Source of the DNA: the human T2T-CHM13v2.0 reference genome, Homo sapiens
NCBI RefSeq assembly: GCF_009914755.1
Contig: NC_060930.1
Length of the DNA stretch: 64,000 nt
Reading direction: 5' to 3' (one strand)
The notes beneath the pieces were generated by a model that had not been told where the DNA came from, made no database searches, and saw only the letters and a program-made list of their open reading frames with translations. Of the stretch, positions 57,858 through 63,095 are shown in pieces. Position 1 is the first letter of the stretch. The number at the start of each line of letters is the position of its first letter. The position numbers were made by a program, and so were the translations under genes.

Positions 57858-58884
57858 AATCTCTCATTTCAAAGACATCAAAATTCCTTCAAGTTGTGTA
57901 ATCAGGATGGCAAGCATTTTAATGTATGAGTTCATGGCACACCTGCATCTTCCCCCTCAGTAACTAGGATCTAGGGGCTTCCTAGGTCAGTCGGTAGAAT
58001 GCATTGGATTGGAAAGGTTGGCCAGTCACTGTAAATTTAAAGGTGTTTTTCTGAATGCTTCAGAAAGTACCAAAAAGCCATTAAAAATGAAAGACTAATG
58101 GAACAATTATGTCCCATTTTGACTTCTAAAAACCAGGATTCTTTGTGTCTTCAGTACTTCTAAGATGTTAATCATTCCAATAAAGCTGAATGGCATGACA
58201 GATTTTCGGCACCTATCAGAGTGGCAGCCATTTCCAACTTCTTTTTTATTCTATATACTGTCAATGTCACTAACATAGATTACATTTCAATTACCTTTTT
58301 CTATTCACTGACTCACATACATTTCACTTAATTGCTAGATCCTTCCACGCAGTTTTCCCATTGTCTGGCTTCCACAACCTTATTTCTGTCACAGGTTGTA
58401 CAGCCAATGATCACCACATTGCAGAGTATATATCTGGTGTTTCAAGTGGGTTTTAGGGTTCCCCAGATTTAGAAATATGTCCACCTGAACATAAAACTGG
58501 GTTCAGTTTTCTGAAGTCTGACCAATGAGCTGACATACTGATAGCTCACTGAGGTAAAAGAAGCTTTGTGATACAACTGAAGGATGTTTATACTTTCAGT
58601 GAACGAGGCATAGCAGCCTAAATGCAACCGATTGAACCACAAATAATACTTCTCAATCAAATGGCCTTTTATCTTTCTTGTCTCTAAATATACCCTTTTA
58701 CCACACAGCTCGTTCTTAAAAAAAAAAAATCCGGTGGTCACAATGTCAATTGCTAACTTTATTTTCTATTTATATCGTCCACTTTATGAATACCCTTTTC
58801 CTCAATTTAATTAGTTAGTGTCACTCACACTTTAACTGGGAACATTGTAAGACTGAGCTGAATTTGAAAACAATGCCGAGGAGC

Positions 58885-58896
58885 CAAGATGGCCGA
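58885..58896 (+). promoter_or_regulatory. L1 YY1 site (CAAGATGGCC) overlapping the in-frame ATG; TISU-like
   Basis: CAAGATGGCCGA, with A at -3 and G at +4. It matches the TISU consensus SAASATGGCGGC at 10 of 12 positions. Confidence 0.75.
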
Positions 58897-61800
58897 TAAT
58901 GGCTGTATTCAGGAAACCCATCTCACGTGCAGAGACACACATAGGCTCAAAATAAAAGGATGGAGGAAGATCTACCAAGCCAATGGAAAACAAAAAAAGG
59001 CAGGGGTTGCAATCCTAGTCTCTGATAAAACAGACTTTAAACCAACAAAGATCAAAAGAGACAAAGAAGGCCATTACATAATGGTAAAGGGATCAATTCA
59101 ACAAGAGGAGCTAACTATCCTAAATATTTATGCACCCAATACAGGAGCACCCAGATTCATAAAGCAAGTCCTCAGTGACCTACAAAGAGACTTAGACTCC
59201 CACACATTAATAATGGGAGACTTTAACACCCCACTGTCAACATTAGACAGATCAACGAGACAGAAAGTCAACAAGGATACCCAGGAATTGAACTCAGCTC
59301 TGCACCAAGCAGACCTAATAGACATCTACAGAACTCTCCACCCCAAATCAACAGAATATACATTTTTTTCAGCACCACACCACACCTATTCCAAAATTGA
59401 CCACATACTTGGAAGTAAAGCTCTCCTCAGCAAATGTAAAAGAACAGAAATTATAACAAACTATCTCTCAGACCACAGTGCAATCAAACTAGAACTCAGG
59501 ATTAAGAATCTCACCCAAAGCCGCTCAACTACATGGAAACTGAACAACCTGCTCCTGAATGACTACTGGGTACATAACGAAATGAAGGCAGAAATAAAGA
59601 TGTTCTTTGAAACCAACGAGAACAAAGACACCACATACCAGAATCTCTGGGACGCATTCAAAGCAGTGTGTAGAGGGAAATTTATAGCACTAAATGCCTA
59701 CAAGAGAAAGCAGGAAAGATCCAAAATTGACACCCTAACATCACAATTAAAAGAACTAGAAAAGCAAGAGCAAACACATTCAAAAGCTAGCAGAAGGCAA
59801 GAAATAACTAAAATCAGAGCAGAACTGAAGGAAATAGAGACACAAAAAACCCTTCAAAAAATCAATGAATCCAGGAGCTGGTTTTTTGAAAGGATCAACA
59901 AAATTGATAGACCGCTAGCAAGACTAATAAAGAAAAAAAGAGAGAAGAATCAAATAGACACAATAAAAAATGATAAAGGGGATATCACCACCGATCCCAC
60001 AGAAATACAAACTACCATCAGAGAATACTACAAACACCTCTACGCAAATAAACTAGAAAATCTAGAAGAAATGGATACATTCCTCGACACATACACTCTC
60101 CCAAGACTAAACCAGGAAGAAGTTGAATCTCTGAATAGACCAATAACAGGCTCTGAAATTGTGGCAATAATCAATAGTTTACCAACCAAAAAGAGTCCAG
60201 GACCAGATGGATTCACAGCCGAATTCTACCAGAGGTACAAGGAGGAACTGGTACCATTCCTTCTGAAACTATTCCAATCAATAGAAAAAGAGGGAATCCT
60301 CCCTAACTCATTTTATGAGGCCAGCATCATTCTGATACCAAAGCCGGGCAGAGACACAACCAAAAAAGAGAATTTTAGACCAATATCCTTGATGAACATT
60401 GATGCAAAAATCCTCAATAAAATACTGGCAAACCGAATCCAGCAGCACATCAAAAAGCTTATCCACCATGATCAAGTGGGCTTCATCCCTGGGATGCAAG
60501 GCTGGTTCAATATATGCAAATCAATAAATGTAATCCAGCATATAAACAGAGCCAAAGACAAAAACCACATGATTATCTCAATAGATGCAGAAAAAGCCTT
60601 TGACAAAATTCAACAACCCTTCATGCTAAAAACTCTCAATAAATTAGGTATTGATGGGACGTATTTCAAAATAATAAGAGCTATCTATGACAAACCCACA
60701 GCCAATATCATACTGAATGGGCAAAAACTGGAAGCATTCCCTTTGAAAACTGGCACAAGACAGGGATGCCCTCTCTCACCACTCCTATTCAACATAGTGT
60801 TGGAAGTTCTGGCCAGGGCAATCAGGCAGGAGAAGGAAATAAAGGGCATTCAATTAGGAAAAGAGGAAGTCAAATTGTCCCTGTTTGCAGACGACATGAT
60901 TGTTTATCTAGAAAACCCCATCGTCTCAGCCCAAAATCTCCTTAAGCTGATAAGCAACTTCAGCAAAGTCTCAGGATACAAAATCAATGTACAAAAATCA
61001 CAAGCATTCTTATACACCAACAACAGACAAACAGAGAGCCAAATCATGGGTGAACTCCCATTCACAATTGCTTCAAAGAGAATAAAATACCTAGGAATCC
61101 AACTTACAAGGGATGTGAAGGACCTCTTCAAGGAGAACTACAAACCACTGCTCAAGGAAATAAAAGAGGACACAAACAAATGGAAGAACATTCCATGCTC
61201 ATGGGTAGGAAGAATCAATATCGTGAAAATGGCCATACTGCCCAAGGTAATTTACAGATTCAATGCCATCCCCATCAAGCTACCAATGACTTTCTTCACA
61301 GAATTGGAAAAAACTACTTTAAAGTTCATATGGAACCAAAAAAGAGCCCGCATCGCCAAGTCAATCCTAAGCCAAAAGAACAAAGCTGGAGGCATCACAC
61401 TACCTGACTTCAAACTATACTACAAGGCTACAGTAACCAAAACAGCATGGTACTGGTACCAAAACAGAGATATAGATCAATGGAACAGAACAGAGCCCTC
61501 AGAAATAATGCCGCATATCTACAACTATCTGATCTTTGACAAACCTGAGAAAAACAAGCAATGGGGAAAGGATTCCCTATTTAATAAATGGTGCTGGGAA
61601 AACTGGCTAGCCATATGTAGAAAGCTGAAACTGGATCCCTTCCTTACACCTTATACAAAAATCAATTCAAGATGGATTAAAGATTTAAACGTTAAACCTA
61701 AAACCATAAAAACCCTAGAAGAAAACCTAGGCATTACCATTCAGGACATAGGCGTGGGCAAGGACTTCATGTCCAAAACACCAAAAGCAATGGCAACAAA

Positions 61801-62614
61801 AGACAAAATTGACAAATGGGATCTAATTAAACTAAAGAGCTTCTGCACAGCAAAAGAAACTACCATCAGAGTGAACAGGCAACCTACAACATGGGAGAAA
61901 ATTTTCGCAACCTACTCATCTGACAAAGGGCTAATATCCAGAATCTACAATGAACTCAAACAAATTTACAAGAAAAAAACAAACAACCCCATCAAAAAGT
62001 GGGCGAAGGACATGAACAGACACTTCTCAAAAGAAGACATTTATGCAGCCAAAAAACACATGAAGAAATGCTCATCATCACTGGCCATCAGAGAAATGCA
62101 AATCAAAACCACTATGAGATATCATCTCACACCAGTTAGAATGGCAATCATTAAAAAGTCAGGAAGCAACAGGTGCTGGAGAGGATGTGGAGAAATAGGA
62201 ACACTTTTACACTGTTGGTGGGACTGTAAACTAGTTCAACCATTGTGGAAGTCAGTGTGGCGATTCCTCAGGGATCTAGAACTAGAAATACCATTTGACC
62301 CAGCCATCCCATTACTGGGTATATACCCAAATGAGTATAAATCATGCTGCTATAAAGACACATGCACACGTATGTTTATTGCGGCACTATTCACAATAGC
62401 AAAGACTTGGAACCAACCCAAATGTCCAACAATGATAGACTGGATTAAGAAAATGTGGCACATATACACCATGGAATACTATGCAGCCATAAAAAATGAT
62501 GAGTTCATATCCTTTGTAGGGACATGGATGAAATTGGAAACCATCATTCTCAGTAAACTATCGCAAGAACAAAAAACCAAACACCGCATATTCTCACTCA
62601 TAGGTGGGAATTGA
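58889..62614 (+). CDS. N-terminally altered L1 ORF2p (1241 aa): MADNG + canonical aa 40-1275; truncated APE endonuclease, intact RT and C-terminal Cys-rich domain
   Basis: Uninterrupted ORF. With a +34 numbering offset, SDH His at 59474 equals H230 and FADD Asp at 60890 equals D702. [11 protein letters not shown] box and CWWDC motif are present, and the ORF ends in the canonical LIGGN. Expression is not shown by sequence. Confidence 0.85.
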
Positions 62615-63095
62615 ACAATAAGATCACATGGACACAGGAAGGGGAATATCACACTCTGGGGACTGTGGTGGGGTCGGGGGAGGGGGGAGGGATAGCATTG
62701 GGAGATATACCTAATGCTAGATGACACATTAGTGGGTGCAGCGCACCAGCATGGCACATGTATACATATGTAACTAACCTGCACAATGTGCACATGTACC
62801 CTAAAACTTAGAGTATAATAAAAAAAAAAGAAAAAGAAAAAACTAAAAATATAAGCAAAAAAAAAAAAAAAAAAAAAAAAGAAAACAATGCCACGATGTC
62901 AGACTGAGTCACATCAATCTTCTAACTGCCCACCACAGCCACAGCGCAACTCAACGACACCCACACGGGTATCTGCGTCCTGGAATTGGACTTTTACATT
63001 TTTATTTTAATGAAAATGATGTATTACATATAAGTAAAACAACACCTTTAAAGATGGAAAAGACCCTTTTTTTCAAGCCTCAATTTCAGTTCTAG

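What the first reader, a model, noticed from the sequence alone, without database searches (positions are those of the whole stretch)
58866..62892. Young L1HS-Ta1 rebuilt as a monocistronic ORF2-only element, with the YY1-site ATG in frame with an intact RT
Seen: one perfect 12-bp TSD brackets an element made of the L1 5'-terminal 19 nt, TAATG, and ORF2 from codon ~40 through the 3'UTR. About 2.1 kb is missing (CpG-island 5'UTR, antisense promoter/ORF0, ORF1, ORF2 aa 1-39). The junction keeps frame, giving 1241 aa from GCCAAG-ATG-G. Established: normal ORF2 is the poorly translated second cistron of a bicistronic RNA. The YY1 site positions L1 transcription initiation. Alu mobilisation needs ORF2p but not ORF1p. 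EN residue N14 is required, whereas E43, D145, D205, H230 and RT D702 are retained here. Inference: if transcribed, this locus could make ORF2p by ordinary scanning, as an RT-competent and probably EN-dead protein, with little CpG island left to silence. It could supply cDNA or support EN-independent insertion in trans. The frame match has a 1-in-3 chance prior, so it is not evidence of selection.
Basis: partly seen in the sequence, partly recalled or inferred. Interest (0 to 1): 0.9.

Follow-up and report, generated by a model that had tools for sequence, protein, structure and literature searches.

The report
Internally deleted young L1 retrotransposon copy
A young human L1 retrotransposon copy inside a PRKN intron lost its promoter, its first gene and the start of its second gene in one 2.1-kb internal deletion, which by chance left a long open reading frame; it is most likely an inert copy of an already known kind.

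Summary
A perfect 12-bp target-site duplication (58866-58877 and 62881-62892) brackets a 4,003-bp L1HS Ta-1 copy. It consists of 19 nt of the L1 5' end, a 5-nt filler (TAATG), then ORF2 from the second base of codon 39 through the 3'UTR and poly(A). About 2,077 nt are missing. An ATG inside the YY1 motif is in frame, giving a 1,241-codon ORF of MADNG plus ORF2p 40-1275. The junction is unique in this genome.

The functional reading is not supported. Only 19 nt of the internal promoter remain. In print, a much smaller 5'UTR deletion cut promoter activity from about 267-fold to about 7-fold over background. The copy lies antisense to PRKN. An 8-codon upstream ORF that starts in the duplication overlaps the main ATG. 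The endonuclease domain lacks its first 34 of 225 Pfam profile positions. Two private substitutions, R577C and N1127S, are untested.

An open ORF2 is ordinary at this age: 16 of 20 compared genomic copies have one. Internally deleted L1 insertions, ORF2-only loci and monocistronic ORF2 RNAs are all in print.

Verdict: a dead-on-arrival L1 copy and a new member of a known kind. Low interest.

The parts
58866..58877 (+). Left copy of the 12-bp target-site duplication (GAAAACAATGCC)
   Evidence: The 12-mer occurs only at 58866 and 62881 in the window. On the bottom strand it reads ...TTTC/AAA at the inferred nick.
58873..58899 (+). Upstream ATG inside the duplication, opening an 8-codon ORF (MPRSQDGR) in another frame. 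It overlaps the main ATG and stops at TAA in the filler.
   Evidence: An in-frame stop for the main ORF lies at 58865.
58878..58896 (+). L1 5'-terminal 19 nt, including the YY1 motif CAAGATGGCCG at 58885-58895
   Evidence: Exact match in 17 of 20 full-length genomic copies. The motif string is as quoted in PMC12179785. The site matches 10 of 12 positions of the TISU motif (motif from PMC3177215).
58897..58901 (+). 5-nt filler TAATG at the deletion junction
   Evidence: It matches neither side of the deletion in full-length copies. No k-mer of 9 nt or more spanning it occurs in a full-length copy.
58889..62614 (+). Open reading frame of 1,241 codons: MADNG followed by ORF2p residues 40-1275
58904..59503 (+). 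Endonuclease-domain remnant (ORF2p 40-239), lacking residues 1-39
   Evidence: Pfam Exo_endo_phos covers profile positions 35-225 of 225 here (54.6 bits), against 1-225 (79.4 bits) in an intact copy. The solved EN domains 1vyb and 8sp5 align from their residue 40. The substitution V208L lies at 59408.
60335..61105 (+). Reverse-transcriptase domain (Pfam RVT_1, full profile 1-205), with FADD present
   Evidence: The private substitution R577C at 60515 (CGC to TGC) lies in this span.
62166..62166 (+). Private substitution N1127S, three residues before the first cysteine (C1130) of the C-terminal cysteine-rich stretch
   Evidence: 0 of 26 other copies carry it. Residue context.
62332..62335 (+). 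Ta-1 diagnostic bases T (62332) and G (62335)
   Evidence: Of 18 compared copies, 14 show T/G and 4 show G/C at the same columns. Criteria from PMC12350158.
62726..62728 (+). Ta diagnostic triplet ACA in the 3'UTR
62817..62822 (+). L1 polyadenylation signal AATAAA
   Evidence: Read directly from the sequence.
62823..62880 (+). Tail: 7 further A, a 27-nt A-rich but non-homopolymer stretch (62830-62856), then 24 A
   Evidence: A 33-mer covering the 27 nt plus 6 A is unique in the genome at up to 3 mismatches.
62881..62892 (+). Right copy of the 12-bp target-site duplication

Best explanation
This is an ordinary, young (Ta-1) human L1 insertion. It lies in an intron of PRKN, antisense to the gene, and was put there by canonical endonuclease-dependent target-primed reverse transcription.

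It carries a one-off internal deletion of about 2,077 nt with a 5-nt filler. The deletion joins nt ~22 of the 5'UTR to codon 39 of ORF2. It most likely arose during the insertion event itself. Either the reverse transcriptase left its template, added a few untemplated bases and resumed near the RNA 5' end, or a broken intermediate was rejoined.

The product was dead on arrival. It has no internal promoter, no ORF1 and an endonuclease domain missing its N-terminal core. The 1,241-codon ORF is a by-product of two things. The copy is too young to have collected stop codons, and the junction fell in the one frame of three that links a pre-existing ATG to ORF2. In native L1 that ATG opens a 3-codon upstream ORF.

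Shown: the anatomy, subfamily, uniqueness and insertion hallmarks. Inferred: the timing of the deletion and the lack of expression.
For: Insertion hallmarks: there is a perfect 12-bp duplication, a poly(A) tail, and the bottom-strand context TTTC/AAA, one base off the recalled L1 endonuclease consensus TTTT/AA.

Youth: the copy is 97.8-99.5% identical to 20 genomic L1HS copies over about 3.94 kb. The ORF2 part differs from each of 18 copies at 10-44 of 3,713 nt. Only 5 sites are shared with 0 of those 18. Ta-1 marks are present.

An open frame is unremarkable: 16 of 20 compared copies have no stop in codons 40-1275.

Native role of the ATG: in the full-length copies it is followed by GCC GAA TAG, read from the contexts printed.

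The deletion is private: the 26-nt junction occurs once in the 3.1-Gb genome.

Promoter loss: 19 nt of 5'UTR remain. A 524-nt intra-5'UTR deletion already reduces promoter activity from about 267-fold to about 7-fold (PMC5860796, section 9 read). The upstream 1 kb has 37% G+C and 8 CpG, so there is no CpG island. It is unique sequence preceded by an Alu.

Endonuclease truncation.

Origin at insertion: about 0.5% of polymorphic L1 insertions carry an internal deletion, and 3.7% carry a deletion plus an inversion (PMC8219666, passages). Purified ORF2p performs untemplated addition and template jumping (PMC10830420, passages).
Against: No expression data of any kind were available, so inertness is inferred and not shown. 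5'-truncated, promoterless monocistronic ORF2 mRNAs have been reported in human brain (PMC12179785), so loci without a 5'UTR can sometimes be transcribed. The retained YY1/TISU-like site with an 11-nt leader could in principle support cap-proximal initiation. The ORF2p core 238-1061 alone is a highly active RT, so a protein made from this ORF could well be RT-active. The timing of the deletion is undecided, because a 5-nt filler fits later end-joining equally well. The published template jumping happens at template ends, not from an internal position.
Confidence: 0.8

Rival explanations
1. One reading: the locus is transcribed. The YY1-site ATG then drives translation of an RT-competent, endonuclease-dead ORF2p that supplies cDNA synthesis or endonuclease-independent insertion in trans.
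For: The ORF is open, with all checked RT and remaining EN catalytic residues present. The ATG context has A at -3 and G at +4 and matches TISU at 10 of 12 positions. The EN-less ORF2p core is RT-active. Monocistronic ORF2 RNAs exist, and some encode active RT (PMC12179785). SpORF2 supports Alu mobilisation (PMC2896524).
Against: The promoter is deleted apart from 19 nt. The copy is antisense to PRKN. There is no CpG island or visible promoter-bearing repeat upstream. An overlapping upstream ORF starts at 58873. The private changes R577C and N1127S are untested. Some full-length ORF2 variants with an intact RT domain lacked RT activity. [quoted passage not shown] ORF2p cis-preference is recalled, not checked here.
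Confidence: 0.06
2. A full-length Ta-1 element inserted normally. Later a genomic deletion repaired by end-joining with a 5-nt insertion removed nt ~23 to ORF2 codon 39. The present state is the same, but the history differs.
For: The 5-nt filler has no microhomology to either side, which is typical of end-joining. No template for the filler was found in L1 or nearby. Nothing in the sequence dates the deletion.
Against: The copy has only 5 private substitutions in 3.7 kb, which leaves little time for a rare 2-kb deletion confined within the element. Internal deletions are already seen in polymorphic, very recent L1 insertions.
Confidence: 0.33
3. The copy is a retrotransposed product of an already shortened RNA, either a spliced L1 mRNA (SpIRE or SpORF2-like) or the transcript of a source element carrying the same deletion.
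For: Spliced L1 RNAs that drop ORF1 exist, with junctions 97/1837 and 290/1920. SpIREs are found in the genome, and one compared copy, L026, looks like SpIRE97/622.
Against: The deleted segment begins ATAGG and ends CAGTGT, so it has neither GT at its start nor AG at its end. A 5-nt filler is incompatible with splicing. The breakpoints (~22 and ORF2 codon 39) match no reported splice site. The junction is unique in this genome. Such an RNA would need ORF1p and endonuclease-proficient ORF2p in trans.
Confidence: 0.03
4. The junction is an assembly artefact, a collapsed full-length L1.
For: None found. Raw reads were not available.
Against: A collapse would not create a 5-nt filler. The flanks and the duplication are coherent.
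Confidence: 0.01

Closest known systems
L1 insertions with internal deletion (class scored in long-read surveys, e.g. xTea, PMC8219666)
   Same: Both L1 ends are present between target-site duplications, and an internal stretch is missing. The class is rare: about 1 of 217 polymorphic insertions per person, plus 8 with a deletion and an inversion.
   Different: Here the 5' piece is only 19 nt, and the junction happens to fuse an upstream ATG in frame to ORF2. That paper reports more breakpoints toward the 3' end.
SpIREs, spliced integrated retrotransposed elements (PMC5860796)
   Same: An L1 copy that keeps its extreme 5' end but lacks internal 5' sequence, has weakened or lost promoter activity, and is an evolutionary dead end.
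   Different: The junction here has no splice-site dinucleotides, carries a filler, and is far larger (5'UTR to ORF2). Described SpIREs are intra-5'UTR or 5'UTR/ORF1.
SpORF2 transcripts (PMC2896524) and monocistronic ORF2 mRNAs of brain (PMC12179785)
   Same: An RNA design in which ORF2 is the first long cistron. SpORF2 supports ORF2p function and Alu mobilisation. More than 550 ORF2-coding variants have been reported.
   Different: Those are RNA species made from promoter-bearing elements or of unknown origin, and they keep the whole endonuclease domain. This is a genomic copy without a promoter whose endonuclease domain is truncated. No transcript is known from it.
L1Base 2 'ORF2-L1s' and hg38 'ORF2 alone / ORF2P alone' loci
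   Same: Genomic L1 copies with an open ORF2 but no working ORF1. Counts are 107 in GRCh38, and 105 ORF2-alone plus 173 partial-ORF2-alone.
   Different: ORF2 here lacks its own start and first 39 codons, so it fits 'partial ORF2' better than 'intact ORF2'. I could not check whether this locus is in those lists.
[quoted passage not shown]
   Same: A YY1-binding motif containing AAGATGG close to a transcription start. TISU allows initiation with leaders of 5-12 nt. The site here matches 10 of 12 positions with a possible 11-nt leader.
   Different: No evidence that transcription starts here. Positions 10 and 12 of the motif differ. In native L1 the same ATG only opens a 3-codon ORF.

Membership tests
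L1HS, Ta-1 subfamily | ACA triplet at L1 position 5929-5931 (Ta) | tested here: met
   ACA lies at 62726-62728. Criterion quoted from PMC12350158.
L1HS, Ta-1 subfamily | T and G at L1 positions 5535 and 5538 (Ta-1; Ta-0 has G and C) | tested here: met
   T at 62332 and G at 62335, 394 nt before the triplet as expected. The same columns show T/G in 14 and G/C in 4 of 18 copies.
L1HS, Ta-1 subfamily | 5'UTR marks that subdivide Ta-1 (for example Ta-1d; recalled) | not testable with these tools
   The relevant 5'UTR stretch is deleted in this copy.
Endonuclease-dependent TPRT insertion | Target-site duplication, poly(A) tail, T-rich/A nick site | tested here: met
   There is a 12-bp perfect duplication, a 24-A terminal run, and bottom-strand TTTC/AAA. 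The consensus TTTT/AA is recalled.
Retrotransposition-competent L1 | Intact 5'UTR promoter, ORF1 and full ORF2 | tested here: not met
   About 2,077 nt are missing, covering the 5'UTR from nt ~23, ORF1 and ORF2 codons 1-38.
SpIRE (spliced integrated retrotransposed element) | Deletion bounded by L1 splice donor and acceptor sites (e.g. 97/622, 97/790, 97/976), joined precisely | tested here: not met
   The breakpoints are at ~22 and ORF2 codon 39, there is no GT...AG, and a 5-nt filler is present. Site list.
L1Base 'ORF2-L1' (intact ORF2, disrupted ORF1) | Complete ORF2 from its own start codon | tested here: not met
   The alignment to solved ORF2p begins at residue 40.
Partial-ORF2 coding locus ('ORF2P alone' of PMC12179785) | An ORF encoding an intact RT domain without ORF1 | tested here: met
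   RVT_1 covers profile 1-205 of 205 and FADD is present. The paper's exact thresholds were not read.
TISU element | Match to SAASATGGCGGC | tested here: inconclusive
   10 of 12 positions match.
TISU element | Location within about 30 nt downstream of a used transcription start | not testable with these tools
   No transcription-start data were available.

The most novel reading that the evidence does not exclude
The deletion has by accident built a minimal short-leader gene. The retained YY1/TISU-like site both positions initiation a few bases upstream and lets ribosomes start on an 11-nt leader. A CpG-poor locus that is hard to silence would then make an endonuclease-less but RT-proficient ORF2p as a first cistron. 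That would be a natural source of cellular reverse transcriptase uncoupled from L1 promoter methylation and from endonuclease toxicity.
Probability: 0.03. Interest if true: 0.5.

Novelty: new member of a known kind. Interest (0 to 1): 0.14.

Why it matters
As it stands it matters little. It is one more dead L1 copy in an intron of a very large gene.

It is a clean, datable example of a rare insertion class, an internal deletion with both ends kept. Its filler junction could inform how L1 cDNA synthesis or resolution goes wrong.

If junction-spanning transcripts were ever found, the locus would have some value. Its unique 26-nt junction makes the RNA and protein unambiguously assignable to one locus, which is rarely possible for L1HS. 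It would then be a natural test of whether an ORF2p without a working endonuclease is made and active in human cells.

Tried and rejected
1. Source tracing by the tail. A 33-mer covering the 27-nt interrupted tail plus 6 A is unique in the genome at up to 2 and up to 3 mismatches. This is a weak test, because a source flank need not share the six A. I did not type a shorter sub-stretch. So the idea of a short 3' transduction stays open.

2. Source tracing by rare variants. Searches with 59380-59545 and 60480-60880 returned many copies with one or two mismatches. The six best, fetched whole, are older copies at 97.2-98.8% identity. They are less alike than the Ta-1 copies at 99.1-99.5%. The shared variants are therefore old states, not lineage marks, and no progenitor was identified. 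Only 40 of 780-2,801 first-look candidates were scored in each search.

3. A template for the filler. No k-mer of 9 nt or more spanning it occurs in a full-length copy. One 6-mer, ATAATG, coincides with the ORF2 start context 118 nt before the 3' breakpoint. I estimate about one such hit by chance, so I rejected it as evidence.

4. Splicing was rejected: there are no splice dinucleotides and a filler is present.

5. Structure prediction of an intact endonuclease domain, to show what residues 1-39 form, was not accepted by the tool. I used Pfam profile coverage with an intact-copy control instead.

7. Athanikar et al. 2004 on the YY1 site is not held, so its coordinates are recalled. The motif string comes from PMC12179785.

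8. A search for N14A/E43A papers gave nothing useful, so the role of N14 is recalled.

9. A search for PARK2 + L1HS + intron + retrotransposon listed 6 papers. I opened none for this purpose and none names this element in its title or abstract, so I cannot say whether the locus is in print.

10. No genome-wide census was made of L1 copies whose extreme 5' end is joined to internal sequence.
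Full report
**What is there**

The region holds one ATG-initiated ORF of at least 100 codons, at 58889..62614 on the + strand. 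It has 1,241 codons and begins [15 protein letters not shown].

The 12-mer GAAAACAATGCC occurs exactly twice in the 64-kb window, at 58866 and 62881, and not on the other strand. It brackets a 4,003-bp element at 58878-62880.

The element ends with the L1 AATAAA signal (62817-62822) and an A-rich tail that closes with 24 A. Read on the bottom strand, the inferred first nick lies in ...GTTTTC/AAATTC. That is one base off the TTTT/AA preference of the L1 endonuclease, which I recall and did not check. These are the hallmarks of ordinary endonuclease-dependent target-primed reverse transcription.

**Breakpoints**

A search of the window's own genome with 58897-60100 gave 39 other scored matches out of 2,801 first-look candidates. 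All of them start at query base 6, which is window 58902.

I fetched 20 of these copies with flanks. The 19 nt at 58878-58896 are found letter for letter at the 5' end of 17 of the 20.

In those 17 copies, the distance from that 19-mer to the point where homology resumes varies as follows:

| Distance (nt) | Copies |
|---|---|
| 2,077 | 7 |
| 2,078 | 5 |
| 2,081 | 2 |
| 2,072 | 1 |
| 1,872 | 1 |
| 1,553 | 1 |

So about 2,077 nt are missing.

In full-length copies the 5' piece continues ATAGGAAC, and the 3' piece is preceded by CATCAGTGT. The five bases TAATG at 58897-58901 match neither side and are a filler. No k-mer of 9 nt or more spanning the filler occurs in a full-length copy. The deleted stretch has neither GT at its start nor AG at its end, so splicing is excluded.

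**Protein**

Against solved structures, residues 6-1241 align end to end with human ORF2p. They match residues 40-1275 of the 1,275-residue chain 8uw3_A and residues 39-1274 of 9k6g_A. The isolated endonuclease domains (1vyb, 8sp5) align only from their residue 40.

The product would be MADNG plus ORF2p 40-1275.

- E43, D145, N147, D205, H230, D600, the FADD box (D702, D703) and the cysteines at 1130, 1134, 1143 and 1147 are present.
- Pfam finds a complete RVT_1 domain.
- The endonuclease family profile is covered only from position 35 of 225. An intact copy run as a control covers 1-225 (79.4 against 54.6 bits).
- The missing 39 residues include N14, which I recall as needed for nicking. I could not confirm this from a held paper.

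**Age, subfamily and how unusual the open frame is**

The element carries ACA at 62726-62728 and T and G at 62332 and 62335. These are the Ta and Ta-1 marks as quoted in PMC12350158 (passage read). At the same columns, 14 of 18 compared copies show T/G and 4 show G/C, which confirms the register.

Over about 3.94 kb it is 97.8-99.5% identical to the 20 copies.

For column-by-column counts I dropped two copies, L023 and L030, because indels put them out of register. Against the other 18, the ORF2 part differs at 10-44 of 3,713 nt. Only five sites are shared with none of them: 59408, 59515, 60515, 60847 and 62166.

With a recalled neutral rate of about 0.1-0.2% per million years, this suggests an age of roughly a million years or less. 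That is a rough figure.

Sixteen of the 20 copies have no stop between codons 40 and 1275. An open ORF2 is therefore the rule at this age, although these 20 were chosen as best matches and are a biased sample.

Of the non-synonymous differences checked against 26 copies:

| Change | Copies sharing it |
|---|---|
| V208L | 2 of 25 |
| D at 795 | 12 of 26 |
| R577C | 0 of 26 |
| N1127S | 0 of 26 |

R577C is a CpG transition inside the RT domain span. N1127S lies three residues before C1130. Their effect is unknown, so 'intact RT' is not established.

**Is the deletion shared?**

The 26-nt junction occurs once in the 3.1-Gb genome. No copy with the same deletion exists there, which argues against a deleted source element.

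Attempts to find the progenitor failed. The tail 33-mer is unique at up to 3 mismatches, which is a test of limited power. The copies that share some of the rarer variants turned out to be older elements at 97.2-98.8% identity.

**How the deletion most likely arose**

Long-read surveys of polymorphic, hence very recent, L1 insertions record a small class with internal deletions. On average this is 1 of 217 per person, plus 8 with a deletion and an inversion (PMC8219666, passages). Such deletions can therefore arise at insertion.

Purified ORF2p adds untemplated bases and jumps between templates (PMC10830420, passages). That would explain a short filler.

I therefore favour an insertion-associated origin, at about 0.55-0.6. 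A later genomic deletion repaired by end-joining fits the junction equally well and is not excluded, at about 0.33.

The ATG lies in the motif CAAGATGGCCG at 58885-58895, which PMC12179785 uses as the YY1 site (section read). In native copies this ATG is followed by GCC GAA TAG, a three-codon ORF (contexts).

Four points speak against expression:

1. Only 19 nt of the internal promoter remain. Removing just nt 98-621 lowered reporter activity from about 267-fold to about 7-fold over a promoterless vector (PMC5860796, section 9 read).
2. The upstream kilobase has 37% G+C and 8 CpG. It is unique sequence with an Alu a kilobase away.
3. PRKN runs on the other strand (hub annotation), so host transcription yields antisense RNA.
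4. Any transcript starting upstream meets an ATG at 58873. Its 8-codon ORF overlaps the main ATG and ends in the filler.

1. The site matches the TISU motif at 10 of 12 positions. TISU supports initiation on leaders of 5-12 nt (PMC2518114 and PMC3177215, passages). A start at the first L1 base would give an 11-nt leader.
2. An ORF2p core without the endonuclease is a very active RT.
3. 5'-truncated monocistronic ORF2 mRNAs lacking the 5'UTR are reported from brain (PMC12179785).
4. Some such variants are RT-active, though others with an intact RT domain are not.

No tool here reads transcripts, so the question stays open in principle. I put the expressed-RT reading at about 0.06.

**Comparison with what is known**

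The idea of ORF2 as a first cistron is not new.

- SpORF2 splice products (97/1837 and 290/1920) support ORF2p function and Alu mobilisation (PMC2896524, passages).
- L1Base 2 lists 107 human loci with intact ORF2 and disrupted ORF1 (PMC5210629, Table 1).
- hg38 holds 105 'ORF2 alone' and 173 'partial ORF2 alone' coding sequences (PMC12179785, Table 1).

This copy fails the tests for a SpIRE, because it has no splice junction. It also fails the test for an intact-ORF2 locus, because codons 1-39 are absent. It fits 'internally deleted L1 insertion' and 'partial-ORF2 coding locus'.

I found no paper naming this locus. The one targeted search was read only as a listing, so this is not proof of absence.

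**Verdict**

The element is a new member of a known kind, and its interest is low. Its one practical virtue is a junction unique in the genome, which makes any RNA or peptide from it assignable to this locus.

Noticed in passing
window 62823-62880: The tail is not a plain poly(A). After AATAAA and 7 further A come 27 nt of A-rich but mixed sequence (62830-62856), then 24 A. In so young a copy this looks more like a short 3' transduction, or cleavage in the source's flank, than a decayed tail. No second copy was found in the genome at up to 3 mismatches with a 33-mer that includes six of the trailing A.
   Followed up: partly
window 58873-58899: The target-site duplication itself supplies an ATG (context ACAATGC). 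It opens an 8-codon ORF that overlaps the main ATG and stops at the TAA created by the filler.
   Followed up: yes
L024-L042 and other full-length copies, first ~30 nt of each L1: In native full-length L1HS copies the first ATG of the RNA lies in the YY1 motif and opens a 3-codon ORF (ATG GCC GAA TAG). The site matches the TISU short-leader initiator at 10 of 12 positions. I did not look up whether this mini-ORF has a role in L1 translation.
   Followed up: no
L026 (G000:C15:68551747-68558447): This L1HS copy aligns to a full-length copy at about nt 3-97 and 620-2100 only, so 524 nt are missing. That matches the SpIRE97/622 splice deletion of PMC5860796. Its ORF2 codons 40-1275 carry no stop.
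   Followed up: partly
L028 (G000:C10:9488060-9494760): This L1HS copy lacks about 200 nt of the 5'UTR, roughly nt 108-300 of a full-length copy, with a short overlap at the junction. The cause was not examined.
   Followed up: no
window 58896-58901 versus L025 index 2282: The filler plus the base before it (ATAATG) equals the six bases ending in the ORF2 start codon, 118 nt before the 3' breakpoint. About one such 6-mer hit is expected by chance, so I give it no weight.
   Followed up: yes
window 57551-57840: A complete Alu on the + strand with an A-rich tail lies about 1 kb upstream of the L1. It is ordinary.
   Followed up: no
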